Shown here: piece by piece, positions 27,148 to 64,000 of the stretch
Layout: every line of letters begins with the position of its first letter
Numbering within the stretch: position 1 is the stretch's first letter
Source of the DNA: Candidatus Omnitrophota bacterium
GTDB taxonomy: Bacteria; Omnitrophota; Gorgyraeia; B26-G9; JBDRCZ01
Assembly (NCBI GenBank): GCA_043821285.1
Contig: JBDRCZ010000017.1
Location: 15,947 to 79,946 of the forward strand
DNA length: 64,000 bases
Direction: 5' to 3'
Position numbers and translations under genes: made by a program
The notes under the pieces: model-generated
Seen by the model: the letters and a program-made list of their open reading frames with translations, nothing else
Databases searched by the model: none
What the model was told of the DNA's origin: nothing

Positions 27148-27954
27148 TTAAATAACTTCAAAGCTAAGCCCCCAGCATAGCTGGGGGCTTAGCTTTGAAG
27201 TTATTTTTTTCTTTTCCTTATCAGATATGCTATTTTCTTCAGTTATAAGTTTCAAAATTAACTGAGAGGGCTTAACGGATTGTTTTAATTTTCTTAGATC
27301 CGGCAAGTCACGTACCTTTTTATTTGTATCTACATATTTATTTTTTATTTTCATGGCAAACGCTTCATCTCCCAGAATACAGCCTTTTAACGTCAGTTTT
27401 TGCAAAGGGAATTTTTCTTTTAACATTCCTGCTGCAACAAACTGCCGATATGATTTTTTGCTCTCAAAAGAAGCCATTATGGTTTTTGTTTCCATGTAGT
27501 TAGGCAATATTTTTGAACCAACATAGTAATGATAACTGCACCAGGGATATTCATAAGGTGTATTAGATAATCCGGCAGCGACGGCGTTAAGATGTATGTA
27601 GCGTGACAGTTCATTAAGGTATGCATCTTTATCAACAACAATTGCTTTATATCTGCCTTGAAAGAGGTGTCCTACCCTCTTTTGTGCTTTATTATAATAT
27701 GTGGTGTAGCTTGAATTTATATACTGCATGCACCGGCTTAAATTAGCATATGGAGTTTCCATAAGCAAGTGATAATGATTAGGCATTAAACAATAGGCAT
27801 GAATTATAAAGCTAAAACGCAGGTATGCATTTTTAATATAAAATAAAAACTTATCTTTATCATAATCAGTAGTAAATATTTCATTTTTATCATTTCCTCT
27901 GGCACTGATATGATAAAAGGCTCCTGGATATTCAATTCTTAATGGTCTAGCCAT
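27148..27954 (-). CDS. IS200/IS605-like Y1 (HuH) transposase family protein (COG1943-type, long form)
   Basis: LMPNHYHLLM HuH motif, conserved Tyr region, 268 aa. Confidence 0.75.
   Translation of the reverse strand: MARPLRIEYPGAFYHISARGNDKNEIFTTDYDKDKFLFYIKNAYLRFSFIIHAYCLMPNHYHLLMETPYANLSRCMQYINSSYTTYYNKAQKRVGHLFQGRYKAIVVDKDAYLNELSRYIHLNAVAAGLSNTPYEYPWCSYHYYVGSKILPNYMETKTIMASFESKKSYRQFVAAGMLKEKFPLQKLTLKGCILGDEAFAMKIKNKYVDTNKKVRDLPDLRKLKQSVKPSQLILKLITEENSISDKEKKKITSKLSPQLCWGLSFEVI
27154..27202. repeat. perfect 23-bp-arm palindrome (loop ATA) at 3' end of IS200-like transposase gene, followed by T8
   Basis: AACTTCAAAGCTAAGCCCCCAGC-ATA-GCTGGGGGCTTAGCTTTGAAGTT; encodes the last residues of the transposase ORF on the minus strand. 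Confidence 0.7.
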
Positions 27955-36100: not shown

Positions 36101-39100
36101 CAATATGTTCTGCTCCTTCAGTTCCATCTCTTCGCTCAATAAAATCGTCCAACATGCCCGCAGCTTTATATTCATTGTAAAGTTTAATTACGGCTGTATC
36201 GATTTCCTGAGCTCTTTTTCGTGCTGTTGATTCTATAAATGATCCCGTGTTTTCATCAATTTTTGATGCAAGTGGAGAGTTTTGAAATGTTTCAATTAGA
36301 TTATGGAATTCATTTAAAGCTATTTGTAATTCTCCATTATTTTCTTGTAATGATACAGGTTGTGGTAATTCATTAAGTTTTAAACTGTCAGCTGGTGTTG
36401 GCTGTACTAATCCACTTTTTCCAACTGGTTCTAAAGATACAATGTTTAATGGTGCAGCAATTCCGATTGGTGCTAATATGGTCTGTGATCCGATAGCGAG
36501 GATAGTGAGTAAAGGCAATACTACCTTACGTGCAAAAGAGAAGTTAACACTGTGTTTAAAACCCCAGCCAAAAATAGCTAATCCTATCAGTCCTATTGCC
36601 GCAATTACAGCACCTGGCAAACCAAAAAATAACCCTGCAAACCCAATTGCCATAATTAACCCATCGATTGAAAGTGCTGTGGTTCCATTAGGTAACCTAC
36701 GGCTGGAATTATTATCCGGCGCAGTAATCTCTACATTATCTCCATGATTAAACGTCTGTTCTAAGTCTTCTACGCTTCTGGGCAAGCCGTTAACTTTTAA
36801 CACCAACTCCCCAGACTGGAGCATTTTTTGTGTGGTTAGGATGGCTTTGCGATTACGATCATTATAATAAGAAATCTGTGAAGTAATAGTCTTAATAAAT
36901 AAATATGCCAGCAGATCATAGATATTTGTTGCGGGAATCTGTTCTGCTGATATCAGTTCTCTAATACCATCTTGTTGACTATTACTGGCTTCTTTAGTTA
37001 TTGTTAATTGGATTAATGCTTTTTGTTCTTCTTCTTGCAATTTTTGAGTTTGCTGAGTTATTTCATCCTCTAAAAGAGCTAATCCAGCCCTATGCTGCTC
37101 TAAGATATCTTTTTCAGGATCAAATTCCCCTTCAGCACAAATTATTAACCCATTTGGCATAATATAGTAGACTATATTGAGATAGCCATGTGTGCTTTTG
37201 CCGATCATCAGTGAGTTTTTATTATTTAGCCAACCTTCGTACCTTTCCTTATGAAGCATAATTTGTTGGCTATGTGTATAATATCTTAACGTTGCATTAA
37301 TAAAACCTTGCGCATCGGCTTCCTCTTCTTTACGATAAGTAAGTGTTGTTCCATGCCCAATGAAACCATTTTTATAATGTTCAGGTAAGTTCTTCCATTC
37401 TTTGTTCAAACCACTTTCAATCCTTTGATGCAGTGATTTGTTTCCAGGAGCCGGTATGACACGTTCTGGCTCTGATGCTAATATCTCAAAGCTCGTGAAG
37501 GCATAAAAAATATTTTCTCTATCTGTCGCAATACCCATGCGTGTTTGACCCAAATTATCAGTTACTACCTGCCAGGTTGTTAATCCTATTTCTCGAGTAT
37601 ATGCAATTAGCGCCAGTTCGTATATTTCTTCTGTTAATAGTCCATCATTTACCATCCGCACAAAAAGCTTAAGAAATTCGTTGCTGTGATATATAAACCC
37701 GACCAATATTACTAAAGAAATTTTTCTTAATCTTTCTGTTGCGTTCTCTTCCTTTTTGAGTTTACAATAGATTGCTTCTATTGCAGTAACACAATCACTT
37801 TTGTATTCTGAGCCTATTGGATCGTCTTCTAACAAGATATTCCCTAATATCTGAACCGCGTATTCTGTTCCAATATCACCTAAAAGGTTTTTAACAGCCC
37901 TTAGGCGTAAGTAAAGCGGGTTAGTTTTATCATTCAACGCATTTGTCACAAGTTTTTCTGCAGGTTCACCAATTCCTCTTATAATCTCCTCACCAAGCAA
38001 AAGTAAGTTGGTTAAGTTCATATTAATTATATATCTATTTGGTTGTTGAATTAATGTTCTCATTCGCTTAATACAAGATTCAATCACATGTGCTCCCAAT
38101 ATCTCTTTCCTGCCAATTTCAACTAAATAGTCCTTTAAAAGTTCTTTTCTTATGTTAGCAAGCTCATAAGCTGAATGAAAAAATAAAATTATTAAACTAT
38201 CAGTTATTTTATCAACCATTTGTTTAATAATATTGTTTTGGTTTTCTGCTCTGGGATTTATTTTTAATGCATTGGCAATTTCAGTTATAAACTGTCTATC
38301 TCTATCTGATAATTCATCCTGTTGAATTCTATTGTATAAGACGAATAAATATCTTATAAAATAATTGAGTACCTCAATAACAGTTCTAAGAAAATCTAGT
38401 TCAGTTTCGTTAAATACTTCTTTTTTTTCAAATTTTTCCTGTGTCATTTGCTCAAATATTTCTTTTATCAATATAACCACTCGTATTTCATTACGTTCTT
38501 TAAGTATGTTAATAAGTAAACGTCTTATCCTCAGGTCAGAAGATTGAAGCACGTATTCTCTTATGTGGGGAAATGCCCGCTCGACAATATTACCTAACAC
38601 CGAAGAGGCAATTGTAACACGTGTTCCGCGATATATTAATCCCTGTTCACTTAATTCTGTAACAGCAGATTGAAGATTATCTTCTGATTTTTTTGCAATC
38701 TCCGTCAAAATATCAATAATCACATCTTGTTTTTTTTCTCCATGATCAAGCAGGTGCCGGATAGCTTTTACGCCAAACCCTTTAACCAAAATATCTTTAA
38801 TATCAGATGTTATTTCACGATCTTCACTATGAGCTGATAAGGCATCTGTTAAAAGGTCCATTGCCGTTGCAATTGTATCTTCATCTCTATTAGCAAATTC
38901 ACCAAGTTCAGCCATATTATCAGTACGTGAAGCGCGATCTCTATACGTAGCTAACTTATTAATCACATCCTGTATGTAAGCTCTCGTTGTACTATTATAA
39001 CTATTTCTATTGCTAAAATGCTTTGTTGTATCTTCTCCCGGATTGCCCCAATCTTGTAAACTAGAAAAAGGTAACTTTAATCCACCTATTCCGGCAAATG

Positions 39101-39581
39101 TCAGTTTAGGGTTTATGCATTGCCAAAATAAATAAACTACCCCTGTTATCATTAACAATACATAAGGATTATTAAAATAACCATGAGGTATATTAGAAGA
39201 TAAGGAAATAATTATTTGCTTAAGTGGGTATAAGATTGTGCTTAGCGGTATTATATTGCTTATTACCAACACAGAAAATATTGCTAAAGCAGTTATACCG
39301 GCAATATAAGCTAATGTTCTGAATCTGTTTAAAAAGATTGGTGATTCTGTTGTAGGTTGTTTTGTTGTGATGGTAGCTGGGGCATGAGGTGTCATTTTTT
39401 CTCCTGAAATTATGAAAGCATGTTCCGTTACGGAATTAGCTATTTGCAATTCAGGGGCAAGGTGGGTGTGTAGACCTTTTAGATTGCCGCCGGCGGCCCA
39501 GGAAATGTCCAGGCATAAAAAGGCATTGATTAATATTATGGAAATTAGTCTAAAATAAATTTTACGTGTTAAATTATTCAT
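33141..39581 (-). CDS. giant-array member B (2146 aa): leader, HEAT-like repeats, multiple internal TM bundles, EQAI tail
   Basis: N-term MNNLTRKIYFRLISIILINAFLCLDISWAAGGNLKGLHTHLAPEL; PBS-lyase/HEAT-like LRLRAVKNLLGDIGTEYAV; TM clusters mid-protein; C-term ...NIFIAEQAI. Confidence 0.7.
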   Translation of the reverse strand: MNNLTRKIYFRLISIILINAFLCLDISWAAGGNLKGLHTHLAPELQIANSVTEHAFIISGEKMTPHAPATITTKQPTTESPIFLNRFRTLAYIAGITALAIFSVLVISNIIPLSTILYPLKQIIISLSSNIPHGYFNNPYVLLMITGVVYLFWQCINPKLTFAGIGGLKLPFSSLQDWGNPGEDTTKHFSNRNSYNSTTRAYIQDVINKLATYRDRASRTDNMAELGEFANRDEDTIATAMDLLTDALSAHSEDREITSDIKDILVKGFGVKAIRHLLDHGEKKQDVIIDILTEIAKKSEDNLQSAVTELSEQGLIYRGTRVTIASSVLGNIVERAFPHIREYVLQSSDLRIRRLLINILKERNEIRVVILIKEIFEQMTQEKFEKKEVFNETELDFLRTVIEVLNYFIRYLFVLYNRIQQDELSDRDRQFITEIANALKINPRAENQNNIIKQMVDKITDSLIILFFHSAYELANIRKELLKDYLVEIGRKEILGAHVIESCIKRMRTLIQQPNRYIINMNLTNLLLLGEEIIRGIGEPAEKLVTNALNDKTNPLYLRLRAVKNLLGDIGTEYAVQILGNILLEDDPIGSEYKSDCVTAIEAIYCKLKKEENATERLRKISLVILVGFIYHSNEFLKLFVRMVNDGLLTEEIYELALIAYTREIGLTTWQVVTDNLGQTRMGIATDRENIFYAFTSFEILASEPERVIPAPGNKSLHQRIESGLNKEWKNLPEHYKNGFIGHGTTLTYRKEEEADAQGFINATLRYYTHSQQIMLHKERYEGWLNNKNSLMIGKSTHGYLNIVYYIMPNGLIICAEGEFDPEKDILEQHRAGLALLEDEITQQTQKLQEEEQKALIQLTITKEASNSQQDGIRELISAEQIPATNIYDLLAYLFIKTITSQISYYNDRNRKAILTTQKMLQSGELVLKVNGLPRSVEDLEQTFNHGDNVEITAPDNNSSRRLPNGTTALSIDGLIMAIGFAGLFFGLPGAVIAAIGLIGLAIFGWGFKHSVNFSFARKVVLPLLTILAIGSQTILAPIGIAAPLNIVSLEPVGKSGLVQPTPADSLKLNELPQPVSLQENNGELQIALNEFHNLIETFQNSPLASKIDENTGSFIESTARKRAQEIDTAVIKLYNEYKAAGMLDDFIERRDGTEGAEHIGPALFLIKLVSPETYQILMTNNPPIRESNFDIVYGSRWNGTWGNPNIGLNFFTKRGIFEYAVTLVRLSHHVDNLPKNPMEFLIKHNPVTLIFNIARLVIPFFDINPETTEAFKNQADFIAKFGIMPPMGEEFFIDSFTVREGYARVKQWNNFISDCMVIPGLGIILTLIYIAYEVKKWISRKIIFPANISGLLHRRRKATNVAFMHPTGWRALNKSPSHENRLGTLIRRLVAWFGNKPKISIVLLAASIGTLMRALGYFPSQPEFSAASMLQSGMGGGTAGLIAAFSLGMASILPRENSSQERDGEFFAFELGADVEKVILEVDRCKEQGEDEEAIEMFLKAEIKRLGEKWRKIINQNINDQQFRDAATKVIDVLLSRKDTDEPYNELQEFIMYLTTLFDNTTRVRNFLNEAYPENAQKWEKEAVVFLGRHDDNAWVIFFDISELRGRNDVYGWENVNILAINTLIEAARKEIEERGRTVYHVSGDEVVGLLPPMLPKEVIEHFLVQIQRKVIERIEGKYVFAILKNINDSNRDALIEKLRENKKRNITTVTKSVFLTPEEEKASKETFILFTKDVEEDENTVLSEILANLKCLDIDINGKIYFPVYVPFAPVGAVKISDIPNISQMSLLEQLRIARDEAEYTQRRTKYANKLVGIGLSERPDPEREERKSPIKIADDKKFQLGVEGERIRQEMIDAGISKEDLDKFYPVIERDKLGKTIQNILDGKSAVSISIVHERPDKFYLVIKRENNRVQLIKLSAHYIVSSTSININDFIRASGNREFYRETDLNGDAQFAQLHFGFKVINDVFGHNVGNDVILSINNNVYNQFAGAYREDDGIITSEKIAATLKAIEIKVNEVISELGMQVRLEAGVVHSEDLNGELGMIIQTVDDLTAARKLTTGFFPNVKNHREIKDNPVLLAKLQKETNDTSAHKDRRSQRVINAKDIATRANPANENVFAPDTLLEDIPSAGEITVPNIFIAEQAI

Positions 39582-40421
39582 AAGTTAATAGCCTATCAGT
39601 TAATTCCAAATGTTCCGCCTATCAAACCGGCGGACAGGCAAATAATAAAATCCAAATGACAAATGAATCATTTAATATCTCAATCTAAAAATCAAAATGA
39701 TATATTAAAATTCAAATATTTTTCTCTTTGACAGGATTTACAGGATTAACATGATTTTTTATCCAGTTAATCCTGTCTATTTTCTTATTTTCTCTGTGAA
39801 CTTTGTGTTCTCTGTGGTTATAAATTTTTTTATTTTTTTTAATCGTAATACTCAATACATGCTACTCAATACGCATTACTTTTTATAGTGTGCTCTCTGT
39901 GGTTAAAATATTTTTTGTTTTTTTATCTACATAATCATCCGTATTCTACGCTCTCTTTTATATGCACTATTTTCATTACAATCATACATATTGTAACCGC
40001 TAATAATTACAATCTGTTAAATATATTTATAACAATTTTAATATATACAAGTAAAGTATACCATATTTTTCTGATTTTTCAAGGATTTTGCTAAAAAAAT
40101 ATAGAAAATAACAGATTAAAAGATTCAGGTGATCACGGTTTTAAAACAGTATCAAGGCATTATTTATAACTTATTTATTTATAATATATTATAAAATAAT
40201 TATCGAATATGCCTACATGTTAATTATTCGTGAAATTCGTGTAATTTGTTGTTTAAAAATAAGCAGTTAAAGTTTTTCTTTGTGTGATAAATTTTATTTT
40301 TTACCGCAGAGAAAATCTAAAAGAAATCTCGTTCACAGATGTATGTAAGTTACATCCACTTTCTATTCTTAGTGCGTTACGTAAACGGTAAACTGCCTGC
40401 CTCCCGTTAGGGAGGTAAACT

Positions 40422-40446
40422 AAAAAATTGCCATAGGCAATTTTTT
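40422..40446. terminator. palindromic A6-TTGCC-ATA-GGCAA-T6 terminator (bidirectional in form) at 3' end of member C, overlapping its stop codon
   Basis: AAAAAATTGCCATAGGCAATTTTTT; second hairpin CCTCCCGTTAGGGAGG at 40400-40415. Confidence 0.5.
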
Positions 40447-43400
40447 AAATTGCCCGTTCAATTTCAAACAAATCTGCTATCTCTCTCTTCTCCAGTTTTG
40501 TATCTGATCCATTTATGCCTACCCTATAGCCAGTGTGTCTTTCTTGGGGAGCAACTATTAGAGAATAAAGAGCGTGTAGTAACAGCATATCAGAATCAGA
40601 AATATGAGGGTCTATATTTTTTGCTTCTAATATTGATTCATCATCGCTTATTATTTCTTGTATAATTGTTTTTACTATATCTCTATCTTCAGCTCTGCAT
40701 TTTTCATGAATTGCATTCAGACATTGTTCAAAAAATGGTCTGAGCATCATAAGCTGAACATTATCTTCTTGTGTATATGCATTGGCAACTGCTTTTGTAA
40801 CTGTTTCTAAAACAGTTTGCCGGTAATCTGGTCTTACCGTATAGATATTATCAAAAAAGATAAAAGTCCCGGCTGCGGCTTGTGGCATTATTGTCTTGTT
40901 TAGTATCTCATTAATAACATTTCGAGGAAAATATACTAAAATACTTAATAATTTATCTATTGTAGTATTACTTGGGGTTAAACCTTGCTGCTGGATCAAC
41001 TCTTGATATTTTCTTCCTATGATTCTATGCATAGATTCAAGACTTCTTCTATTTGCATTTATCATTAAATTATTTCCTTTAACTGCTGTAACTAAGTCCG
41101 TTAATTCGCTTCGTATCATTTCTCGTTCTTTCTCAAATACATCCGTATCTTCGTTCCTCTGAGATATAAATAACCCTAAAAATTCAAGTTCTAATGCTTT
41201 TTTAAAGGCATCTTCCGAAGTAAATGCGTTTAATCTAACAGTAATATTTTCTAACAACATTAGCTCAAAGCTGGTACCTTGACGAAAAATATGTTTTAGA
41301 AATTTTTCTGCATTAGTAAATTCGGGTGAAAAGATGATTTCTCCACTGACACCATCTACTGTTTTCTCCATCACTTCATTTATCAAATTACCTACTGAAT
41401 CTAAGTTGTGAAACTCGTTTAATCTATTTTCATCTTGTATAACAGCTCTTAAATAAACCTCCATTCTTAAAAGGTAATCAGCCAAAAAAACACCATCAAT
41501 TGCAAAACGTATATTTTCATTCGTATCTTGAGTTCTTGCAGTCAAGGCTTGATAAAGAAAATCATCTATATCGGTCAACATTCTATAAAAGATTTCCATT
41601 GCTGTTTCCTTATCCTGTTTTAGAGCAAGTTCGAGGACATTATTAACATTTGAAAAATCTCGTGAAATATACTCCTTAATTACATCACATAACGCATTGA
41701 ACAGTGGTTTTTTATCACGACGGTAAATAGCAAAACTTAGCCTAATAAATGCTGCTAATATCTCATGGGAATTAAATCCTGAATTTATTAAATAACTTTG
41801 CTCCTTTTCTATATAGATTGGTATAATTTTAGAAACGTCATATCCCGCAATAACTGTGTAAGCAACTGCAGCAAAAATAAGATTATGTGTTTCTGCATCA
41901 TGTTTAGGAATGTTTATTCGTTGTAAGATTTCTCCTAATACTTCTCCTGCCTCAGTAGTTCTCTCCTCTTTTCCTTCAATCTGCGCTTTTATTTTATTAG
42001 TAAAAAATTCAAAAACAAAATCAGGTTCTGCCTTAAGATACGCTTCTATTGTTTCCCAATCTGCTGCTAATAAATTACGCAGTTTTTGGATTTTATCTTG
42101 AACCACGATTAAGTTATTTCGTAGATTGCTTATTTTTTTCTGATTTTTTCTCGTTTGTTTTTGCTCTTTGTTTATGGTTTGCTGAATAGTTCTTTCATTG
42201 CTTTGGCGACGATTAAGTGCCTGCGTCCTTGTAATAACTCCTTCTAAGAGGATTGTTACTTCAGAGAGTTTTTCTCTACGCGCTTTTACTGCCGGGGGCA
42301 TATCTAAAAGTAGAGGTTCCCTTGTTGTCACTGGAGCCTGCCATGCTGGAAGTTCTTCAGATGCTACTTGCATAGCAGCAGCGCCTTGAAGGACCTGAGG
42401 ATATAATGAATGTTTTTGCATTGGGTCTTCAACTAACATAAGCTCACAACTTTGAGGCGGTTTGAGAGCATTAATTCTATTTTGGATAACTACTCCCAAT
42501 CCCCAAGCCCATTCTGCTTGACTTTTATATAAATCAACTAAGGCTTCAATATCCTCACTTTCGTTTATAATTGCGGTTATTCTCTCTACCAGAGGAGCCC
42601 GGCTGTTTCTGTTAGGATAGGTATTAAGCATTTGATATAATTCAGGTATATTACTTAAATCATTATAACCGAGTAATCTTTTTCTCAGTACCTCTGCTAT
42701 TACCCCCCTTATTTGCTTACATCCGTAGGTATATTTATTTATAGAATTATCTGTAAGTAAACGAAGCAGGTTTTCGATATCTAAGGAAAACACTTGCCTG
42801 ATAATACCGAAAATAATATATATTTCTACTTCAGAGTGAATTTTTTTACTAAGTAAATTAGCTAATGCAGCAAGTGCCTCGCCCCCCCATTTACTAACCA
42901 TCTCCTGAGCAATAGCTTGAGCTTGTGTTTTGTCATTATTTTCTGCTTGCTGACGTTTAAATCTATCGGAAATTGCGGTTAATCGTTCAATGCCATCTTC
43001 AATCGAAGAAACAGTTAGGTGTATTTCTGATATTTTTCCTTGAGAAGCAATACTATTACTTAATTGTGCGGCTGCTGCTTGCTTTGTTTTCTGGGGTAAC
43101 CTTGGATTTCGTGACCACTCTGAAAGCAAGCGATCATTTACTTCTGCTAATCTTTTTGCAGTGCTTAACGCCTTAATTCTATACCAAAGATAATTATTCC
43201 AGTATTCATCGTCCCATTCTTGGCTTAGATACACATCAACTAAGGCAACAATATCTTGATTATTTTTTATTATATGTTTCATCCTTCTTCTTGCCAGATC
43301 TTTAATGTCTTCGTTCGGACATAATGTTTCATTATTAATAACATAATATAATGCAGAAATACTTGTTACGTTTCGAGGAATGCTAACAGTTTTTATGATA

Positions 43401-46400
43401 ATTATGCTTTTAATCATACCTCTGGTAACTTCAGCTCCTTTAGTTTCTTGCTGATTCATCGCAGTATATAAATAAAATATTTCTGTAACAGACATTGAGT
43501 TAAGACAATTACCAAGTGCCGACATAGTTATTTCTATTGCTTCTTCATTAAGAAGATTCGTATCAATTTGCTCAGCAAATTGTTTAATAATTTCTAAAAA
43601 CTCATCTTTATCCTTTGTGTTATACATTTCTGTTATAATATTTTTAACTTCTTGAGGAGCGGATGCAATAAAGGCTTGTATTTCTTCGGGTGTCTGATAA
43701 TAATCAGCCAACTCTTTCTCCAGCTTTTCTATTTGTGACGCAATTGTCGTATCTAGTTCTGGTTTATTAATTCGCAGCCACTCTATTATTCTTTTTCTTA
43801 CTGTCCGATCTTGGATGCCAATCAATAATCCTAGTACATGCACTACCTCGTTTTCTAAACACATGTATTGTGACAAGATGTCGTTAAGTTCCGTATTCGC
43901 TGCATTGCTAAAGAATAGGTATATAGTACCAGCAATATGTTTTTGTATGCCCGTAAGTCTAAGGATTTTTTCACTCAAAATATTTCTTATGCTCGAACCC
44001 CAGCTTCTTTCTAAATATAATTCTACTGCTGTCTTTAAATTATCACATTCATTAACCAGTTCTCTTATTCTCATCCTTAGCAGTGCCCGGGTTCCTTCAT
44101 GGTACTCTCTATCATTGAGCAAATCTTGCAGTGGTTCGATACTAGCAATGCCTTGATATTCAGCAAGGCGCTGTTTGATCGCTTCTATTAATTGACTACT
44201 ATTGTCCCCATGATTTAACCTACGCAATAGTTCCTCTAAGGTGAGAGTTTTTATGGGGTCAAAATCTGCTAGTAGTTCTGCAAAAGTTACTTGATTATCA
44301 GAAGGCGCTGCAACTTCTCTTGTCGGGGGGGCATCCCTGTTGGTGTCGGCTCTTTGATTAGCGTTTCGCCATGCTGCTCTTAAGGCACGTGTATCTGACT
44401 GTGATGGTGGCTCTGGAAAATGTACCACCTGAGCTGCATTCGACGGAGCTGTTGTTCGTACAAACCTATCTGGAGGGGATAGTGATAGATCGAAAGCAGC
44501 TGCTAGTTTTTCTAATGAGTTTAGAGTCAAAGGGTTATTGTTTCCTGATGGAGGAACTGTATCTTTTGGTAAAGCAACTTCTGCTGTGTCAGTCCCTTCC
44601 TTTTCTGGTTGTCGCAAGTCACCTGATTGTAATGGTACGGTGTATGCTTGAGGGTTATTTTCTTTTTCCCTTTCCCTTTTCCTTTTCTTTCTTGCAATAG
44701 GAGGACTATCTGCTCTATATTGTTTACGTGCTTTCCTTTTCATTAATACAACTTTATCTTCTTCTTCATCATCATCATATTGGTCACTATCATCTATTGC
44801 ATTTATTAACTCCTCTATTATGAGCATTAAAGCAATCCGTATATTTTCTTCTGATAATTCACCCGAACCCTCTTGCATCAATTGCTCAATTTCTTCCTCT
44901 GACAAAGTTAAATCGTTTATAACACCAATGAGCTGTTCAATGATTTGACCATTCTCGTGTGCGCTTTCAATTATATTATCTATAGCATCTTTTAACGCTT
45001 CATGATATGTATCTTCATCAAGTAGTAAATAAGTTTTTACTAAAAAACTAAGATCTATTTCTAAAGCACTATTTCTCGTTGATCTTACGCCGGTACTACC
45101 AAGCAAGCATAGTAAACTAAATCCCCAAGCCAACCCCTTCCAAATAAAAAATGCCAGTGCATCTGGTCTTGCGGCAACAAAGTGTACTACTGGATATAAT
45201 AATCCTTCATGTCGTGCAAGAGAATTTATGATTGTAAATTCGATGTAGTCGATAATAATGAGCATAGCTGATTTAGCACCAGTAACCGCCTTTTTAACTA
45301 ATTCCCAAACATTTGGTATAAATTGTATCTGCGGTTGTATATATAAAGGAAAGGTCATTATTAAGGAAAGACCTAATATAGCGTGTATTGGTAAATGCCC
45401 TAAGTTTACACTAACCGGGATGCCCGTGATATTACTGATTACCTCTAATATAAAAGGTGCAATCAATAATAAAAAGAGGCCATTTATTAATGGATGGGAA
45501 TTCAGGGTAACACTCTTACCAGCATTACTTTCTTGATAAAATTCTCTTACCGCTCTATTTGTTTTTATTAAAGCACGTAAATCAATAATGATATTTCCAT
45601 TTCTATCTTTACGAAGGTCATGTTTATTTTCCTTGTCAGATAAAAATATCTTATCATCTTCTTTCACAATTTTATATTCCACGTTACCAATCCAAATAAT
45701 ATCATTTTCCCTGAAAGTTACTTCTTTCCTTAAAATATCAATGATTAATTCCTTGCTGTTTGCTTCGTTACGCAGAAGAATAGTATTACCAGCTATTGCA
45801 TATTTTGTATTATCTATCATTCTGTCTTGATGCCACCATGCTATTCTGAGTTTGTAACCATCACCCTTTCCCTCAGTTTTTATTTTTTTTAGACCATCTG
45901 TTGGGAAAAATTCTAACCGTTCTCGTAAACGCTGGATTTTAGTATTGTATTGTCTTATATCTAAAATTCGCTTGTTATGAATGTTCTGAATTACAGCTAA
46001 TAACTCGTTGTCCTTAATACTTGCTAATAATGCGCCATAAAAGGCCAGACCTAAGCTATCTACTCTTAAAACTATTCTTTCTATTTCTGTGTGTTTGTTT
46101 TTGTTAAATAGAGTTGTTAAATAATTAGCCAATATCAGTACAAATTCCCCGCCCCACCACTTTATAACCTCAACCAATTGACCAAGAGACTGCGGTGTAA
46201 TATTTTGATGTTCATTCAGGAGATTTTCAATAATTTGTAATACTGCAGAAACTGAATATACACCAAATTGTTCGGCCAAAGCTTTGATTATTGCCAATCT
46301 TTGCGTTTCATCAAAATTATTAAGATTAGCTTCTTTTTCTTTCATCATCTTAATATAATTTTCGGCTGAATCCCAATCTTGAGTAGACTTATTAGTATCC

Positions 46401-47536
46401 CAATACTGTACTGGTTTGCGATACACTGCTTTTGCTGCTACTAATATATTTTTTTCTTTCTCTGTAAGTGCGGTGTCATCATTTGTCCATATCCTAATCA
46501 TTCCGTGTCTTGGTGCTGTTATATAAAATGAAATTTTTGACGCAAGAAACTCTTCCCATTCTTCTGGAGAAGGCACAGTTGATAAATCAGCACGTAAACG
46601 TATAAAACGGTTATAGTTTTTATTTTCGTTATTAATTATGTCTGCCGGAAGCAGCCGCCGGCCAACATGAATTTCTATATTAGAGTTTTCTGGTATTGGT
46701 TGGGTATAACGGCTTCGATCAGGGGTTGAAACATTCCAGTAGTTTTGTGTTGATATACCAAATCTCAAAGATTCGTTATCTATTTTTATGCTCTCGGGAG
46801 CAAAAAACATCATCATAATTGCATGCGCAGGTAAACGTATTGCATCAATCCAGTAGTGAATTCCTTTACGATAACTATACTCAAGGATAATTTTAATACC
46901 ACGTTCAAACAGAACTTTTAATCCGGGTAAAAAGGCAATATTATTAAATACGCTGTTGGTATTTAATCTAAAGACTTCCATATCCCTGGGGACAGTAAGC
47001 ACTATTCGCGGAGACGCACCTTTAATATCTATTTTTCCATAAGTAGTAATTTCACTTTGCAAATCACGCGCCAACCCAAGCAAACTTAGAAAGTCAATTT
47101 CTTTTAGAACCGGGGGTATTCTTTCAACCGTCTCATCATCTGGACAAGGTATTTCTGGAATTTCCCTAATATTTAATTGATTGTTTTTTTTAGAAATTAC
47201 ATAAGAACGTTGTTTACCAGCTGCGCCTGTTGTTACAAACAATACTATCGAACCATCATTCGCAAATCTTTTCTCGCATGCATCAAACTCAAACTTATCT
47301 TTAATATAACTTACGCCAACATGTCCTTCTGCCCAAGTATATGCATCACTTATTTTTTTGTAAAGCATAATATTTTCTGCAAATAGAGGGTCATTTACTT
47401 CCAAAGGCGGGGCAAGATGGGTATGTAGACCTTTTAGATTGCCGCCGGCGGCCCATGAGATGTCTAAGCATAGAAAGGCATTGATTAATATTATGGAAAT
47501 TAGTCTAAAACAAATTGTACGTGTTAAATTATTCAT
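40445..47536 (-). CDS. giant-array member C (2363 aa): leader, TM bundle, basic/acidic low-complexity region, C-terminal module paralogous to member F, EIERAI tail
   Basis: N-term MNNLTRTICFRLISIILINAFLCLDISWAAGGNLKGLHTHLAPPL; RKKRKREREKE basic stretch; ~450-aa alignment with F; C-term ...DLFEIERAI. Confidence 0.7.
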   Translation of the reverse strand: MNNLTRTICFRLISIILINAFLCLDISWAAGGNLKGLHTHLAPPLEVNDPLFAENIMLYKKISDAYTWAEGHVGVSYIKDKFEFDACEKRFANDGSIVLFVTTGAAGKQRSYVISKKNNQLNIREIPEIPCPDDETVERIPPVLKEIDFLSLLGLARDLQSEITTYGKIDIKGASPRIVLTVPRDMEVFRLNTNSVFNNIAFLPGLKVLFERGIKIILEYSYRKGIHYWIDAIRLPAHAIMMMFFAPESIKIDNESLRFGISTQNYWNVSTPDRSRYTQPIPENSNIEIHVGRRLLPADIINNENKNYNRFIRLRADLSTVPSPEEWEEFLASKISFYITAPRHGMIRIWTNDDTALTEKEKNILVAAKAVYRKPVQYWDTNKSTQDWDSAENYIKMMKEKEANLNNFDETQRLAIIKALAEQFGVYSVSAVLQIIENLLNEHQNITPQSLGQLVEVIKWWGGEFVLILANYLTTLFNKNKHTEIERIVLRVDSLGLAFYGALLASIKDNELLAVIQNIHNKRILDIRQYNTKIQRLRERLEFFPTDGLKKIKTEGKGDGYKLRIAWWHQDRMIDNTKYAIAGNTILLRNEANSKELIIDILRKEVTFRENDIIWIGNVEYKIVKEDDKIFLSDKENKHDLRKDRNGNIIIDLRALIKTNRAVREFYQESNAGKSVTLNSHPLINGLFLLLIAPFILEVISNITGIPVSVNLGHLPIHAILGLSLIMTFPLYIQPQIQFIPNVWELVKKAVTGAKSAMLIIIDYIEFTIINSLARHEGLLYPVVHFVAARPDALAFFIWKGLAWGFSLLCLLGSTGVRSTRNSALEIDLSFLVKTYLLLDEDTYHEALKDAIDNIIESAHENGQIIEQLIGVINDLTLSEEEIEQLMQEGSGELSEENIRIALMLIIEELINAIDDSDQYDDDEEEDKVVLMKRKARKQYRADSPPIARKKRKREREKENNPQAYTVPLQSGDLRQPEKEGTDTAEVALPKDTVPPSGNNNPLTLNSLEKLAAAFDLSLSPPDRFVRTTAPSNAAQVVHFPEPPSQSDTRALRAAWRNANQRADTNRDAPPTREVAAPSDNQVTFAELLADFDPIKTLTLEELLRRLNHGDNSSQLIEAIKQRLAEYQGIASIEPLQDLLNDREYHEGTRALLRMRIRELVNECDNLKTAVELYLERSWGSSIRNILSEKILRLTGIQKHIAGTIYLFFSNAANTELNDILSQYMCLENEVVHVLGLLIGIQDRTVRKRIIEWLRINKPELDTTIASQIEKLEKELADYYQTPEEIQAFIASAPQEVKNIITEMYNTKDKDEFLEIIKQFAEQIDTNLLNEEAIEITMSALGNCLNSMSVTEIFYLYTAMNQQETKGAEVTRGMIKSIIIIKTVSIPRNVTSISALYYVINNETLCPNEDIKDLARRRMKHIIKNNQDIVALVDVYLSQEWDDEYWNNYLWYRIKALSTAKRLAEVNDRLLSEWSRNPRLPQKTKQAAAAQLSNSIASQGKISEIHLTVSSIEDGIERLTAISDRFKRQQAENNDKTQAQAIAQEMVSKWGGEALAALANLLSKKIHSEVEIYIIFGIIRQVFSLDIENLLRLLTDNSINKYTYGCKQIRGVIAEVLRKRLLGYNDLSNIPELYQMLNTYPNRNSRAPLVERITAIINESEDIEALVDLYKSQAEWAWGLGVVIQNRINALKPPQSCELMLVEDPMQKHSLYPQVLQGAAAMQVASEELPAWQAPVTTREPLLLDMPPAVKARREKLSEVTILLEGVITRTQALNRRQSNERTIQQTINKEQKQTRKNQKKISNLRNNLIVVQDKIQKLRNLLAADWETIEAYLKAEPDFVFEFFTNKIKAQIEGKEERTTEAGEVLGEILQRINIPKHDAETHNLIFAAVAYTVIAGYDVSKIIPIYIEKEQSYLINSGFNSHEILAAFIRLSFAIYRRDKKPLFNALCDVIKEYISRDFSNVNNVLELALKQDKETAMEIFYRMLTDIDDFLYQALTARTQDTNENIRFAIDGVFLADYLLRMEVYLRAVIQDENRLNEFHNLDSVGNLINEVMEKTVDGVSGEIIFSPEFTNAEKFLKHIFRQGTSFELMLLENITVRLNAFTSEDAFKKALELEFLGLFISQRNEDTDVFEKEREMIRSELTDLVTAVKGNNLMINANRRSLESMHRIIGRKYQELIQQQGLTPSNTTIDKLLSILVYFPRNVINEILNKTIMPQAAAGTFIFFDNIYTVRPDYRQTVLETVTKAVANAYTQEDNVQLMMLRPFFEQCLNAIHEKCRAEDRDIVKTIIQEIISDDESILEAKNIDPHISDSDMLLLHALYSLIVAPQERHTGYRVGINGSDTKLEKREIADLFEIERAI

Positions 47537-47855
47537 ATGTTAATACCCTGTTAGTTAATTCCAAATGTTCTAATTCAAGATTTAAAAATTCCAAGATTCC
47601 AGATTCTAAAATTATAAAATTCCCCGCTACAAGGTCGAAGATCCGCCATCGTATTAGTGAAGAACGCTGGCGAACAGGCAAATTCTCTAACCTTCGGCAA
47701 GTAAAACGTTTTGAATCGTTAAATCTTAAAATATTCAAATTTTGGAATTGTTTGTTTTATTCTTCTGTCTTCTATTCTCTACCTTCTGTTTTCTGCTTTC
47801 AATCAGCTGTATCAGTAAACGGTAAACTGCCTGCCTTCCATTAGGGAGGTAAACT

Positions 47856-47879
47856 AAAAAATTGCCGCAGCAATTTTTT
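47856..47879. terminator. palindromic terminator at 3' end of member D
   Basis: AAAAAATTGCCGCAGCAATTTTTT; adjacent CCTTCCATTAGGGAGG. Confidence 0.5.
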
Positions 47880-55287: not shown

Positions 55288-55312
55288 AAAAATTGCCGAT
55301 GGCAATTTTTTT
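55288..55312. terminator. palindromic terminator at 3' end of member E
   Basis: AAAAATTGCCGATGGCAATTTTTTT. Confidence 0.5.
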
Positions 55313-59960: not shown

Positions 59961-62900
59961 AAATTGCCTGTTCTATAGCATACACCATATCTAATTCAAA
60001 CAAGTTAATCTCTGGCGCATCATCCGGTTGAGATACAATCATTAGAGCAGTGCTTGGTTTTATAGGAGGATTATTTTGATCTAACTCATCTGGGTCATTG
60101 CGGAAAGACCCATATTCATCTTCGCTCCAGGGATAACAATATATTGAAGTTCCCCCATCCTTTTTTTTCTCAAGAAGACCGTATTCTGATAATCGATTAA
60201 GAACTGTCCTTACCCTGTCTGTGCCCATATATCTATAATTGCGGAATTCATCTCTCAATACCTCAGCAACCTCTGATGCTTTAAACTCCCTACCGTTAGC
60301 AAAATTCGCCCAGACTGTACGAAGTATAACTTTTTCATTACCGGGCTGATTGTTCTCCTGTAGTGTAATATTGTCCCAGTAAGATAAATATGATTGGTCA
60401 AATTCCTCTTTTGACAAATCCCGCAATTCCCGTTTATGTTCTTGGTCAATTGCTGCCATCTCACGATATACAATGCATTTGTTTAAGTGTGCGAGTGACA
60501 GCAATAACGGCACATTTTTTATCTGCCCCTTGTTTATTCTTTGCGTTTCTGATATTCTTAAAATCTGTTTATAATATTCTATTGTTTTGTCATAACACGA
60601 TAGTGCTTTTATATATTCTTCTTTATCATTTTGCTCAAAACCATTTTCCGCATATTCAGCGCCTTCTTCAGCATACCATGCAGCTGCTTCTGTAAAAATA
60701 TCTACTGCACCAGCAAAATATTTTTCCTTAATATATTTACTAGCTAACGCTTTATAAACATTAGCGGACATTGGCATACTGCTATCTGGATAAAATTGTT
60801 TTCCTGTTGACTGGTTACTAGTTCTCGTGTGTGATGGTATTATCATTCTTGCAGGTGTGCTACTTTGGGGAGAAACTCCATTATATGTTGTATCAAAACC
60901 CCTAGTATATGCGAATTGCCATTTTTGTGGTATGATATTTCGTAATACCTCCGCGATAAAGGCAGGTGGGGTTAAAATCCAATTTGCTACCTTGATTAAG
61001 GCTTCAGAATATCTTTTACCTTCTAATTTATCCTCCATCCATTTTAGTACTGTAGCGCGCTGCCAGAAGCCAAGATATTCTCCAAAGAAATAGAAAAATA
61101 CTACTGCTGCCCATCCTCCCACACCCGCCAGGTCAAAAGGTATAATTAAACGGCCCGCACCTCTATTTCTGAGTCTATCTTGTATAACAAAATGCGGCAG
61201 TGGGACATTAAACCTTAATATCTGCCTTTCTCTACTTAATATTAAATCAGCATTGCCTAAATTTGCTTTACCGATAACTTCATCTATAATACTCCTCACA
61301 ATCACTTTTTCTCGATTATTACACCCGCGGTAAATCGCTCTAAAATATTCTCTTAGTAGAGAACGGATCATTATAAGCTGAACATTGTCTTGTCTTATGT
61401 ATACTTCAGCAGCTGAACGTACTGCTATTTCAAGTGCTTCTTGTTTGTGCGCTGGCAATATTCTGTATGTCTGATTAGCCACTGTGCCCCTATCTTGTGT
61501 GACATAAGGGGCTATCACTTTAAAAAGTACATGCCGTGCATCTGCTTGAGAAAGATATACTAATCCTTTTAATGTGTCATCCATGACCGCTTTAGTTAAC
61601 GGGTGTTGTCCTGGATTTTGAATAGAACTGTAAATTCTAGCGATAATTTCTATATTAATTCTCTCTATAGGTGTAGAATCTATTTTAAATTCATAGCTTC
61701 CTACATCGTCTTTTCTAACGGTCTGCACAATTTCATTTACTTTTTGAATAATCTCTTGTCTTTCATCTTTTAAAAGGCCTATATCTTCTCTTGATAAAAA
61801 GCTTGCTAAAAACTCCAGTTCTAATGCTTGCTGAAGAGCATTTTCTGGAGAAAAATTATTAATCCCTTGTTTAAGAGCATCCATCATGGAAACTTCTAAG
61901 TTTATACCAGGGCGATAAGTGTGTAAAAAAAACCTTTTGATATTGATAAATTCTGGCAAAAGAATAACCTCTTTAGTGTCTAAATTTATAGTCTCATTTA
62001 TAGTTTCTTCTAATATAGAGCTAAACGGGCGAAGAAGTACTAATCTTTCATAAAGAGTCTCATCTGAATGAAAAAATGTTAAATAGATCACAAGTCTTAA
62101 ATAATAATCCGCCAGAAAAACACCATCTACAGTAAACTCTATGTTACCATCTTTATCTCTACGGCTTACAGTTAAACATTTGTACAAAAAATTATCTATC
62201 TCTGTAAGCATCCGATATAAGATTTCCATCGCGGTTTCTGTATTCTGTTCTAAGGCAAGCTCAAGAACATTAGTGACATTTGAGAAATCTTGCAAAACAA
62301 CATATTCTTTAAGAACACCCCATAGACTATCAAACAACTCATGGTCTTCACGATGATAAGCAAATGCAGCCAGGCCAACAAATGACGCTAAGTTTGCTTT
62401 TAAATTTAAACCGGTATTTATCAAATAGCTTATTTCCTTTTCTATATAAATGAGTATAATTTTAGAAACATCACCTCCGGCAATAAAGGTATAAACAATC
62501 ACTGCAAAAAGGGCGTCGTGTAATTCCTCATCTTCCGGAGATATATTTAATCGTTGAAGTATTTCAGCCAACACTGCTATTACCATATCAATTTCTTCGA
62601 TATTATCTTGTATATGCACGCGCATTTTATTAATAAAAAATACCAAAACATGGCGAAGTTCATTTTTTAGATGACTGTCCAATTTTTCCCAGTCTCCTTC
62701 TTCCGTTTCTGTTAAACTTTGTATTTCAGCTTGGACACGGTCTAATTCTTCATTCAACGAGTTTATTCTTTCTGTATTTGAAGGGGCCGGACTTCTCTGT
62801 CTCTGTCTTTGTCTCTGCCGCCTTGAGCTTCTTGGTTCTGACCTACGCTGTAAGTTTTGTATTTCCCGGGTAATCTCTTGCTCTCGCCCTTTCAGCGCCG

Positions 62901-64000
62901 TTAGTTCTTTTCTGCTGGCAATAATATGCTCTAATAAATTGCTTATATCTGTTTGTAATCGGTCATCTGCTGGTCTAACGACCGATGGTTGCTTATCTTC
63001 AGCAGTTGGTTGTTCTGTAGGAATTAATGCTATTGATACTTTTATCGGGTCATCAAACGGCCAATCAATACTTTGGCTTAGCATTCTCTGAAACTCCACA
63101 AATAATTCTTTACTGTTTTTTTGCCCATTAACCTGCTCTGCAAAAATTTCAAACATATCTTCTCTGGTAAGACTACCTTCAATTAACGGTCTAATATCGG
63201 CTGTAGATTCTACAAGAATCATACTAACCGAGCGCAGTGAATTTTCGATTGTATCAGCCTTAATAACCCTATCTTCTTTATCTTGCAAATATTCTCTGAT
63301 TAAATATTGCAGTGCTTCTCGGTTAACACTAAGGGTTGAGCTGGCAAAATACATTACTATCTCTAAATAGTACATCCGCATCTCTTGCTTTCTTGCCCCG
63401 GCAATTTTTTTGATAATTTCTTCAAAATAATCTTTATCCTCCTCAAGTTTATCTTGCCAGAGATTTGCTAACTGGTAAAGAGCCGTCCTTCTTGTATTTT
63501 CATCTCTACTTTCTCTTAGTTTTCTGATAAGCTGTGCTTCGCGCTGTGTAGCAAGATTTTGATAGATTTCATCTATTTCAAACAATATCTCCAATTTTTC
63601 TCTTAATTTTATTCTTTCATTACCCAAACGGCCATCATCCGTGCCTTGGAGAACTAAATTCCCTAATATCTCAATGGCACATCTCTTGCGCATCTTATTA
63701 AGCGGTGTGAAGTTATTAAAGGATGCTTCTATTAATACTAAACCCATTCTTTCTAAAGAAGCGCCTTGAGCAAAAAGGGTTCTAAAATATAGACCGATAT
63801 TATAGTGGTCCGGCGGCAGTTCTGTAAACATCTCTATTTCAGAACGGTCAACAATCTCTTGAAACAATATTTCGATTAAGATAGTTAGCAATCTGTAACG
63901 TCTATTTTCAACCCCAGTAAGATAGAGTACTAAACTATTAGTAAACTCCGCTAGACCAATTATTACTTCTTCTGGTAATTCGGCTGTTTTCAGTTCGGGT
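59959..64000 (-). CDS. giant-array member F (>1345 aa, 5' end beyond window): RQ-repeat, module paralogous to member C, TPR-like C-terminal region, EQAI tail
   Basis: Frame open to window edge; RRQRQRQRQRS; ~450-aa alignment with C; C-term ...VYAIEQAI. Confidence 0.7.
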   Translation of the reverse strand, partial: PELKTAELPEEVIIGLAEFTNSLVLYLTGVENRRYRLLTILIEILFQEIVDRSEIEMFTELPPDHYNIGLYFRTLFAQGASLERMGLVLIEASFNNFTPLNKMRKRCAIEILGNLVLQGTDDGRLGNERIKLREKLEILFEIDEIYQNLATQREAQLIRKLRESRDENTRRTALYQLANLWQDKLEEDKDYFEEIIKKIAGARKQEMRMYYLEIVMYFASSTLSVNREALQYLIREYLQDKEDRVIKADTIENSLRSVSMILVESTADIRPLIEGSLTREDMFEIFAEQVNGQKNSKELFVEFQRMLSQSIDWPFDDPIKVSIALIPTEQPTAEDKQPSVVRPADDRLQTDISNLLEHIIASRKELTALKGREQEITREIQNLQRRSEPRSSRRQRQRQRQRSPAPSNTERINSLNEELDRVQAEIQSLTETEEGDWEKLDSHLKNELRHVLVFFINKMRVHIQDNIEEIDMVIAVLAEILQRLNISPEDEELHDALFAVIVYTFIAGGDVSKIILIYIEKEISYLINTGLNLKANLASFVGLAAFAYHREDHELFDSLWGVLKEYVVLQDFSNVTNVLELALEQNTETAMEILYRMLTEIDNFLYKCLTVSRRDKDGNIEFTVDGVFLADYYLRLVIYLTFFHSDETLYERLVLLRPFSSILEETINETINLDTKEVILLPEFINIKRFFLHTYRPGINLEVSMMDALKQGINNFSPENALQQALELEFLASFLSREDIGLLKDERQEIIQKVNEIVQTVRKDDVGSYEFKIDSTPIERINIEIIARIYSSIQNPGQHPLTKAVMDDTLKGLVYLSQADARHVLFKVIAPYVTQDRGTVANQTYRILPAHKQEALEIAVRSAAEVYIRQDNVQLIMIRSLLREYFRAIYRGCNNREKVIVRSIIDEVIGKANLGNADLILSRERQILRFNVPLPHFVIQDRLRNRGAGRLIIPFDLAGVGGWAAVVFFYFFGEYLGFWQRATVLKWMEDKLEGKRYSEALIKVANWILTPPAFIAEVLRNIIPQKWQFAYTRGFDTTYNGVSPQSSTPARMIIPSHTRTSNQSTGKQFYPDSSMPMSANVYKALASKYIKEKYFAGAVDIFTEAAAWYAEEGAEYAENGFEQNDKEEYIKALSCYDKTIEYYKQILRISETQRINKGQIKNVPLLLSLAHLNKCIVYREMAAIDQEHKRELRDLSKEEFDQSYLSYWDNITLQENNQPGNEKVILRTVWANFANGREFKASEVAEVLRDEFRNYRYMGTDRVRTVLNRLSEYGLLEKKKDGGTSIYCYPWSEDEYGSFRNDPDELDQNNPPIKPSTALMIVSQPDDAPEINLFELDMVYAIEQAI

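What the first reader, a model, noticed from the sequence alone, without database searches (positions are those of the whole stretch)
40640..41950. ~450-aa module shared between members C and F: mosaic cargo architecture
C (aa ~1863-2300) and F (aa ~400-880, nt ~61252-62694) align with many identical blocks: DVSKII(P/L)IYIEKE(Q/I)SYLIN, FSNV(N/T)NVLELAL(K/E)Q(D/N)(K/T)ETAMEI(F/L)YRMLT(D/E)ID(D/N)FLY, DGVFLADY(L/Y)LR, ALELEFL(G/A)(L/S)F(I/L)S, (T/R)QEDNVQL(M/I)M(L/I)R. In C it is the C-terminal module directly before the tail. In F it is internal, with an extra ~450-aa TPR-like region before the tail. Cargo is therefore assembled from shuffled modules between fixed leader and tail.
Basis: seen in the sequence. 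Interest (0 to 1): 0.55.

Follow-up and report, generated by a model that had tools for sequence, protein, structure and literature searches.

The report
Shared helical domain in two Omnitrophota proteins
Two neighbouring giant genes of an uncultured Omnitrophota bacterium really do share a ~570-residue domain, which is an old, very rare, all-helical scaffold-type domain of unknown function, not evidence of active module shuffling.

Summary
C (40445-47536, minus strand) and F (59959 to beyond 64000, minus strand) share a 565-590 aa block. It is 36-37% identical, with BLASTP E 4e-98 and a Smith-Waterman score 108 SD above shuffles. This is longer than the ~450 aa reported. It is the only similarity among the six proteins apart from the ~47-aa leader and the E(Q/R)AI tail.

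A profile search of 1.84 billion representative proteins found the block in only two other proteins. Both come from MAG assemblies; only P0002's source names it Omnitrophota. Both lack the leader, and the complete one also lacks the tail. In them the block sits near the N-terminus or in the middle. F carries a second, diverged partial copy at the window edge.

Synonymous sites are saturated, so the duplication is old. The spacers downstream of C and F are colinear homologues. One old segmental duplication plus a 1.1-kb indel therefore explains the C/F pattern better than free cassette shuffling.

Verdict: a new but ordinary domain family.

The parts
40646..42337 (-). Module copy in protein C (aa 1734-2297 of 2363). 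The match to P0002 widens the outer limits to about 40619-42391.
   Evidence: BLASTP C vs F, E 4e-98. Profile hit over positions 1-590. P0002 aligns to C aa 1716-2306.
42029..42295 (-). N-terminal sub-part of the C module: a long antiparallel helical hairpin (module aa 15-103), basic and coiled-coil-like.
40646..42025 (-). C-terminal sub-part of the C module: a ~460-aa irregular alpha-solenoid (about 24 helices and three small beta-hairpins). It carries the invariant motifs E-x-H, Y..KE..YL, VLE....Q..E, DG.FL.D, N...F, N.F and LE..F.
61270..63030 (-). Module copy 2 in protein F (aa 288-874 from the TTG at 63891; aa 324-910 counted from the window end).
   Evidence: DNA repeat families D2, D8 and D14 share a constant offset of about 20,630 nt.
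63586..63951 (-). Significant core of a second, diverged module copy in F (copy 1). It matches profile positions 307-435. The alignment continues to about 63100, where it abuts copy 2. Its N-terminal half lies beyond the window end.
   Evidence: hmmsearch domain E 1.3e-9. BLASTP to P0003 aa 1185-1313, E 6e-8. Alignment (20-24% identity; N342, F346, E358, N370, F372 and E383 kept).
60109..61155 (-). F-specific insert between module and tail: hydrophobic TM-like segment (61057-61155), SNAP/TPR-like stretch (60478-60801) and winged-helix Penicillinase_R-like domain (60109-60336).
   Evidence: Pfam, hydropathy scan, sequence. Its ~1.1 kb equals the difference between the module offset (20,630) and the tail/spacer offset (about 19,450-19,530).
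40448..40471 (-). C-terminal tail of C (LFEIERAI-COOH), one instance of the shared hydrophobic-E(Q/R)AI ending.
   Evidence: Exactly 6 of 184 open frames of at least 60 aa end in E[QR]AI, and they are the six family members.
59962..59985 (-). C-terminal tail of F (VYAIEQAI-COOH).
47396..47536 (-). Leader of C (aa 1-47: basic N-region, hydrophobic core, LDISWAA, then NLKGLHTHLAPPL). It is shared by A-E.
   Evidence: Alignment A2. BLASTP 55-89% identity. Synonymous sites are mostly saturated, so conservation is at the protein level.
39582..40444 (-). Spacer downstream of C (upstream of B): a terminator hairpin directly after the stop codon, then repeat elements. It is colinear with the spacer downstream of F (59037-59958).
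   Evidence: blastn finds five colinear blocks at 74-91% identity. Repeat families D3, D4, D6, D7, D15, D16. No credible ORFs. No Rfam match.

Best explanation
The shared segment is one homologous protein domain of about 570 aa. It consists of a ~90-aa antiparallel helical hairpin followed by a ~460-aa non-repetitive alpha-solenoid. It belongs to a very small domain family with no Pfam, NCBIfam or PDB sequence match, found so far in three MAGs, two of them labelled Omnitrophota. It occurs inside long multidomain proteins.

The C and F copies most likely descend from one old segmental duplication. The duplicated unit ran from the start of the module through the tail, terminator, spacer and the next gene's promoter and leader. 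Afterwards F gained, or C lost, a 1.1-kb TM/TPR/winged-helix insert, and F's module was also duplicated in tandem.

The domain most likely acts as a rigid protein-protein interaction scaffold or spacer that holds or presents the neighbouring enzymatic or regulatory domains, as HEAT/ARM solenoids do. It is probably not a catalytic unit or a swappable cargo cassette.

Shown here: the homology, its extent, its rarity, its different positions, the age of the duplication, and the colinear flanks. Predicted with good confidence: the fold. Inferred: the scaffold function and the order of evolutionary events.
For: Homology and extent.

Rarity: the profile search of 1.84e9 representatives gave only C itself, P0002 (395 bits) and P0003 (267 bits). 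Nothing was found in JGI metagenome contigs or IMG/VR.

Discrete unit: P0002 and P0003 share only this block with C and F. The module sits at aa 135-672 of at least 3365, at 918-1462 of 1610, at 1734-2297 of 2363, and internally in F.

Source: C is ABH952_01585 of a Candidatus Omnitrophota MAG. P0002 is also from an Omnitrophota MAG.

Age: identical-codon fraction 0.52 against 0.476 expected. C-F identity (37%) is barely above C-P0002 (34%).

Segmental duplication: the spacers downstream of C and F are colinear homologues, and the offset arithmetic fits.

Context: HEAT repeats are the commonest annotated domain in giant Omnitrophota proteins, alongside TPR, methyltransferase, HAD and GGDEF domains (West-Roberts et al., bioRxiv 10.1101/2023.11.21.568195).
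Against: - No sequence repeats are detectable.
- About 18 polar residues are invariant across four copies at 27-37% identity (E-x-H, K-E, DG.FL.D, N, E, R). That would also fit a ligand-binding or catalytic site.
- The spacer elements also occur, in part, next to A, D and E. Their similarity may reflect shared regulatory elements or gene conversion, not common descent of the whole segment. The B and E leaders are not each other's closest relatives.
- The AF2 models rest on only four sequences.
Confidence: 0.55

Rival explanations
1. The leader/tail genes are a cassette system whose bodies are actively assembled by recombination of interchangeable modules, and the C/F module is one such cassette.
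For: The same module sits at different distances from the tail in C and F. Its upstream flanks are unrelated. It is repeated within F and occurs in other architectures elsewhere. Leader and tail are strongly conserved while the bodies are unrelated. Two transposases lie in or beside the array.
Against: Only one shared module exists among six proteins. Identity is 37% with saturated synonymous sites. There are no repeats or recombination sites at the module borders. The module also occurs in proteins without the leader, one of them complete and without the tail. Homology continues colinearly past the tail into the spacer. C aa 57-1733 has no relative anywhere.
Confidence: 0.15
2. The module is an all-alpha enzyme or small-molecule-binding domain, and its conservation reflects an active site, not a scaffold.
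For: There are many invariant polar residues in short motifs (E149-x-H151, K178-E179, E236/Q241/E244, D281-G-x-F-L-x-D287, N342, N370, E383, D397, R405). Several are retained even in the 20-24% identical copy 1 of F. No internal repeats are detectable, unlike typical HEAT/ARM arrays. The neighbouring domains in these proteins are enzymes.
Confidence: 0.2
3. The similarity is an artefact of low complexity, coiled-coil composition, or MAG mis-assembly.
For: The first ~100 aa are charged and coiled-coil-like, and F has an RQRQRQ run there. The source is a metagenome-assembled genome.
Against: z = 108 over shuffles, with composition-corrected E 4e-98. The best-conserved blocks lie in the non-coiled-coil part: 39% identity in the solenoid part, against 37% over the whole module. 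Independent homologues exist in two other assemblies. At 55% nucleotide identity the copies cannot be an assembly duplication.
Confidence: 0.01

Closest known systems
HEAT/ARM/TOG-type alpha-solenoid scaffolds (for example Listerin, Scc2/SA2 cohesin HEAT subunits, PP2A A subunit, importin-beta, CLASP TOG domains)
Archaeovorin-type giant proteins of Omnitrophota (West-Roberts et al. 2023, bioRxiv 10.1101/2023.11.21.568195) and the long-protein catalogue of bioRxiv 10.64898/2026.06.07.730766
   Same: Same phylum. N-terminal signal-peptide or TM features, helical-repeat blocks (HEAT, TPR) interspersed with methyltransferase, HAD, GGDEF-like and other enzyme domains.
   Different: The proteins here are 1-2.4 kaa, not 30 kaa or more. 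They form a tandem array of paralogues with a common 47-aa leader and an E(Q/R)AI C-terminus. My term searches of those two papers turned up neither feature. The module itself has no annotated counterpart.
Ordinary domain duplication and accretion in multidomain proteins (segmental duplication followed by indels)
   Same: One domain is shared between paralogous neighbours. The flanking non-coding DNA is colinear, there is a tandem intragenic copy, and the divergence is old.
   Different: Nothing unusual, except that the domain family is extremely rare: three 50%-identity clusters in 1.84e9 representatives.
Polymorphic-toxin or variable-surface-protein loci (conserved N-terminus, swappable C-terminal cassettes)
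   Same: A tandem array of genes with conserved 5' ends and unrelated bodies.
   Different: The 3' end is also conserved. There are no toxin or immunity domains or small immunity ORFs. No orphan cassettes and no recent recombination are seen.

Membership tests
HEAT/ARM/TPR helical-repeat families (Pfam clans) | Sequence profile match to a HEAT, ARM or TPR repeat model | tested here: not met
   No such Pfam hit on C or on the four module copies, even at E up to 5. F's SNAP/TPR-like hit lies outside the module.
HEAT/ARM/TPR helical-repeat families (Pfam clans) | Tandem internal repeats of about 35-50 aa | tested here: not met
   hhalign of the module profile against itself: the best off-diagonal hit has E 0.67.
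HEAT/ARM/TPR helical-repeat families (Pfam clans) | Three-dimensional alpha-alpha solenoid of stacked helix pairs | tested here: inconclusive
Archaeovorin-type giant Omnitrophota proteins | Encoded by Omnitrophota | tested here: met
   C = MFH1776244.1, ABH952_01585, Candidatus Omnitrophota bacterium.
Archaeovorin-type giant Omnitrophota proteins | Giant length (tens of thousands of aa) | tested here: not met
   C is 2363 aa and F at least 1346 aa.
Archaeovorin-type giant Omnitrophota proteins | Helical-repeat blocks combined with enzyme domains and N-terminal signal or TM segments | tested here: inconclusive
   The family as a whole shows this: transketolase in D, methyltransferase/PRT/HAD in E, TPR-like in F, and a signal-like leader plus extra hydrophobic segments. 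C itself has no recognisable enzyme domain. No topology predictor was available.
Proteins with a C-terminal sorting tag (LPXTG, PEP-CTERM, GlyGly-CTERM, T9SS CTD) | NCBIfam/TIGRFAM sorting-domain match, or a motif followed by a TM helix and a basic tail | tested here: not met
   No NCBIfam hit on any tail. The proteins end directly in E(Q/R)AI-COOH with no TM segment or basic cluster. No sortase or exosortase was found among the window genes scanned.
Polymorphic toxin / cassette systems | C-terminal toxin domain with an adjacent immunity gene, and orphan cassettes | tested here: not met
   No toxin families in Pfam or PADLOC. The spacers hold no credible small ORFs.

The most novel reading that the evidence does not exclude
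The array (A-F, plus at least two more genes elsewhere in the same MAG) may encode substrates of a lineage-specific export or sorting route. In that reading, substrates are recognised by the conserved signal-like leader and the free E(Q/R)AI C-terminus. The shared hairpin-plus-solenoid module would be a new adaptor domain that docks such substrates, which carry cytoplasm-type enzymes (transketolase, SAM methyltransferase, PRTase) or a winged-helix domain, onto a partner or a host/prey target. This would amount to an effector repertoire of a predatory or parasitic Omnitrophota bacterium.
Probability: 0.12. Interest if true: 0.65.

Novelty: new member of a known kind. Interest (0 to 1): 0.3.

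Why it matters
The result defines a new protein domain family that is not in Pfam. It has five copies in four proteins from three MAGs, and its predicted fold is confident, so it can be used to annotate the otherwise blank long proteins of Omnitrophota.

The result also removes the main sequence argument for a cassette-shuffling reading of this locus. The one shared module is an old duplicate, and it is not tied to the leader/tail frame.

The more interesting question is what the genome-specific leader and the E(Q/R)AI tail do on proteins that carry cytoplasm-type enzymes. This module does not answer that question.

Tried and rejected
1. Word-indexed homologue search with the C module found nothing. 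That negative is unreliable because it missed even the self hit that later returned. The exhaustive profile search was used instead.
2. Searches of GTDB genomes and JGI metagenomes with the leader profile found no loci. The protein search found only two more leader genes, both in the same MAG.
3. Looking up the window's own contig to read F's N-terminus failed. C and E are 'not on record' in that index, as are P0004 and P0005.
4. The afdb50 fold library was unavailable.
6. PADLOC, PHROGs and NCBIfam gave nothing on C or on the module.
7. Module profile scans of JGI metagenome contigs and IMG/VR found no loci.
8. Self-comparison for internal repeats found none.
9. I checked whether the E(Q/R)AI tail is just a by-product of the terminator hairpin DNA that abuts the stop codon in C-F. 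Rejected: A and B keep EQAI with different downstream DNA, and the E, Q and I codons vary synonymously.
10. A phage or defence-island origin was rejected: the context is a bacterial chromosome and there are no viral hits.

Full report
**Layout**

The window carries six long ORFs on the minus strand:

| Protein | Coordinates | Length |
|---|---|---|
| A | 29833-32820 | 995 aa |
| B | 33141-39581 | 2146 aa |
| C | 40445-47536 | 2363 aa |
| D | 47878-53553 | 1891 aa |
| E | 55311-59036 | 1241 aa |
| F | 59959 to beyond 64000 | at least 1346 aa |

F's frame is still open at the window end, so its N-terminus is missing. The rest of the window is ordinary bacterial chromosome: thiC, guaA, dnaE, hisS, aroB, an MscS channel, an IS200-type transposase, and a DDE transposase between D and E.

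C is identical to MFH1776244.1 (ABH952_01585) of a 'Candidatus Omnitrophota bacterium' MAG, on a contig of 85,997 bp. The nearest GuaA in one-genome-per-species GTDB is only 61-64% identical over the full length. One partial match, covering residues 159-514, reaches 70%. The lineage is therefore poorly sampled.

**Checking the observation**

All-against-all BLASTP shows three kinds of similarity among the six proteins.

- The N-terminal ~47-55 aa of A-E are 55-89% identical.
- C aa 1734-2297 matches F aa 288-874 (numbered from the TTG at 63891): 35.9% identity over 590 columns, E 4.4e-98.
- All six share the short E(Q/R)AI ending. Exactly 6 of 184 open frames end this way.

At E up to 1 no other credible pair appears.

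The Smith-Waterman score is 897 against 47.5 +/- 7.8 for 200 shuffles (z = 108), and composition is unremarkable.

The homologous block is longer than reported.

**A second copy in F**

A profile of the C and F copies also matches the first visible residues of F. Window-end numbering aa 17-138 aligns to profile positions 307-435, with domain E 1.3e-9. The same stretch hits P0003 at E 6e-8.

Aligned to the family, this copy runs on to the module's C-terminal end and stops about 20 aa before copy 2 begins. F therefore has a tandem intragenic duplication of the module. The older copy is cut by the window edge.

**Distribution**

An exhaustive HMMER profile search of 1.84 billion representative proteins returned three proteins:

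- C itself.
- P0002: at least 3365 aa, cut by a contig end, from an Omnitrophota MAG where it is annotated 'sigma factor, partial'. The module is at aa 135-672.
- P0003: 1610 aa, from assembly GCA_041643215.1. The module is at aa 918-1462, after a VTT/DedA membrane domain.

Neither protein has the leader. P0003, which is complete, also lacks the tail. They share nothing but the module with C, F or each other. No further loci were found in JGI metagenome contigs or IMG/VR.

Pairwise identities:

| Pair | Identity |
|---|---|
| C - F copy 2 | 37% |
| C - P0002 | 34% |
| F copy 2 - P0002 | 32.5% |
| P0003 - any other | 27-28% |
| F copy 1 - any other | 20-24% |

The remaining 1677 aa of C have no relative at all in the word-indexed search.

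**What the module is**

Pfam, NCBIfam, PADLOC, PHROGs and PDB sequence searches find nothing beyond coiled-coil noise in its first ~100 residues.

AlphaFold2 on the four-sequence alignment gives a confident model (pLDDT 87.6, pTM 0.82). It has two parts:

- A long antiparallel helical hairpin (module aa 15-60 and 66-103).
- About 460 aa of packed helices with three small beta-hairpins.

F's RQ-rich 18-aa insertion falls exactly at the hairpin tip, which supports the model.

This is a fold-class resemblance, not a family relationship. No internal sequence repeats are detectable. About 18 polar residues are invariant across the four copies, and several are kept in F's copy 1. A binding or catalytic site therefore cannot be excluded.

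**Age and origin**

At residues identical between C and F, codons are identical in 52% of cases, against 48% expected from codon usage alone. Synonymous sites are saturated, so the duplication is old. There has been no recent exchange or gene conversion in the module.

DNA-level repeats show the module copies at a constant offset of about 20,630 nt. The tails, the terminator hairpins and the long spacers downstream of C (39582-40444) and F (59037-59958) match at offsets of about 19,430-19,530 nt. The two spacers align colinearly in five blocks at 74-91% identity.

The ~1.1-kb difference between the two offsets equals F's extra segment between module and tail. That segment holds a TM-like stretch, a SNAP/TPR-like region and a winged-helix domain.

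The simplest history is as follows:

- One old segmental duplication covered module, tail, terminator, spacer and the next gene's 5' end.
- An indel followed between module and tail.
- The module was duplicated in tandem within F.
- The sequence upstream of the module start was replaced, leaving unrelated sequence there.

One caveat applies. Parts of the spacer elements recur next to A, D and E, and leader similarities (B-C and D-E are the closest pairs) do not mirror this history. Shared regulatory elements or gene conversion may therefore contribute to the spacer similarity.

**Function**

On the evidence, the module is most likely a rigid interaction scaffold inside long multidomain proteins. 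This matches published descriptions of giant Omnitrophota proteins. In those proteins HEAT repeats are the commonest annotated domain and are interspersed with TPR, methyltransferase, HAD and GGDEF domains. Most long proteins there carry a signal peptide or TM helices.

The cellular side on which the module acts is unresolved:

- P0002 has no signal peptide and no convincing TM segment in 3365 aa, and it carries a sigma-70 region-2-like stretch. That argues for a cytoplasmic setting.
- C has the signal-like leader plus two further hydrophobic segments (aa 683 and 794).
- F has a hydrophobic segment directly after the module.
- No topology predictor was available.

'Mosaic architecture' is fair as a description. 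The module is a discrete unit found at different positions, with unrelated upstream flanks. 'Cargo assembled from shuffled modules between fixed leader and tail' is not supported, for five reasons:

- It is the only shared body segment among the six proteins.
- It is ancient.
- It also occurs outside leader/tail proteins.
- F's leader is unseen.
- The C/F similarity extends colinearly beyond the genes.

**The leader and tail**

The leader and tail remain the more unusual feature of the locus.

- The leader is conserved at the protein level, because synonymous sites are mostly saturated.
- It looks like a Sec signal with an SWA|A site followed by NLKxLxTHLAPPL (the cleavage site is my inference).
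- It was found only in this MAG: the five genes here plus P0004 and P0005 on other contigs. The GTDB and JGI scans found nothing.
- The tail is conserved at the protein level independently of the downstream terminator DNA.
- Their combination with cytoplasm-type enzymes (transketolase in D; SAM methyltransferase, PRTase-like and HAD-like domains in E) is unexplained. It is the basis of the 'novel case' reading.

**Verdict**

The shared domain is real and statistically overwhelming, and it defines a new, very rare helical domain family. Biologically it is an ordinary case of old domain duplication in multidomain proteins. Interest 0.3.

Noticed in passing
window 40422-40470, 47855-47903, 55288-55336, 59936-59984 (minus-strand genes C, D, E, F): The stop codon of C, D, E and F is followed at once by a conserved hairpin AAAAAATTGCC-nnn-GGCAATTTTTT and then GTTTACC repeats. 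The last codons (GCA ATx TAA) form a third GCAAT arm that could pair with the middle arm in place of the terminator stem. This may be a translation-coupled terminator/antiterminator arrangement. A and B keep the EQAI ending without this DNA.
   Followed up: partly
window 39582-40444 and 59037-59958: The two unusually long spacers (864 and 922 nt) downstream of C and F are colinear homologues at 74-91% identity, better conserved than the adjacent coding DNA. They contain no credible ORF and no Rfam match. Their function is unknown; they could be regulatory or a non-coding RNA.
   Followed up: partly
window 39600-39632, 59056-59088 (variants upstream of C near 47600 and D near 53620): A conserved hairpin, CGCCGGTTTGATAGGCGG preceded by TTTGCCTGTC, lies about 20-50 nt upstream of the start codons of B and E (91% identical). 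Looser versions lie upstream of C and D.
   Followed up: no
window 32680-32820, 39441-39581, 47396-47536, 53413-53553, 58896-59036; also P0004 and P0005 from other contigs of the same MAG: The ~47-aa leader (K/R-rich, hydrophobic core, LDISWAA, NLKxLxTHLAPPL) was found only in this one MAG, in at least 7 genes, among 5.8 billion proteins, GTDB genomes and JGI metagenomes. It sits on proteins that carry cytoplasm-type enzymes.
   Followed up: partly
window 47878-53553 (protein D): D contains a nearly complete transketolase (aa 677-1307) plus a second pyrimidine-binding and C-terminal domain set (aa 1527-1832). An 83%-identical 58-nt DNA repeat (48392-48449 and 49910-49967) marks the internal duplication. 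Two TM-like segments (aa 611 and 653) lie just before the transketolase.
   Followed up: partly
window 53922-54986 (+) and 27148-27954 (-): A DDE-family transposase sits on the opposite strand between D and E, interrupting the array. An IS200/Y1 transposase lies just downstream of A.
   Followed up: no
window 55311-59036 (protein E): E combines a SAM methyltransferase (aa 108-236; also PADLOC mad2, E 3e-17) with weak phosphoribosyltransferase (aa 725-767; ShosT-like) and HAD (aa 1045-1087) signals, behind a signal-like leader.
   Followed up: no
window 973-1044 (+): A tRNA gene (Rfam, 63 bits) starts 10 nt before the end of the thiC ORF (86-982).
   Followed up: no
tool behaviour, vs 78: The word-indexed protein search with the C module (an exact substring of P0001) returned no hit at all, while a query with the rest of C returned P0001. 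Negatives from that tool should not be trusted for this locus.
   Followed up: yes
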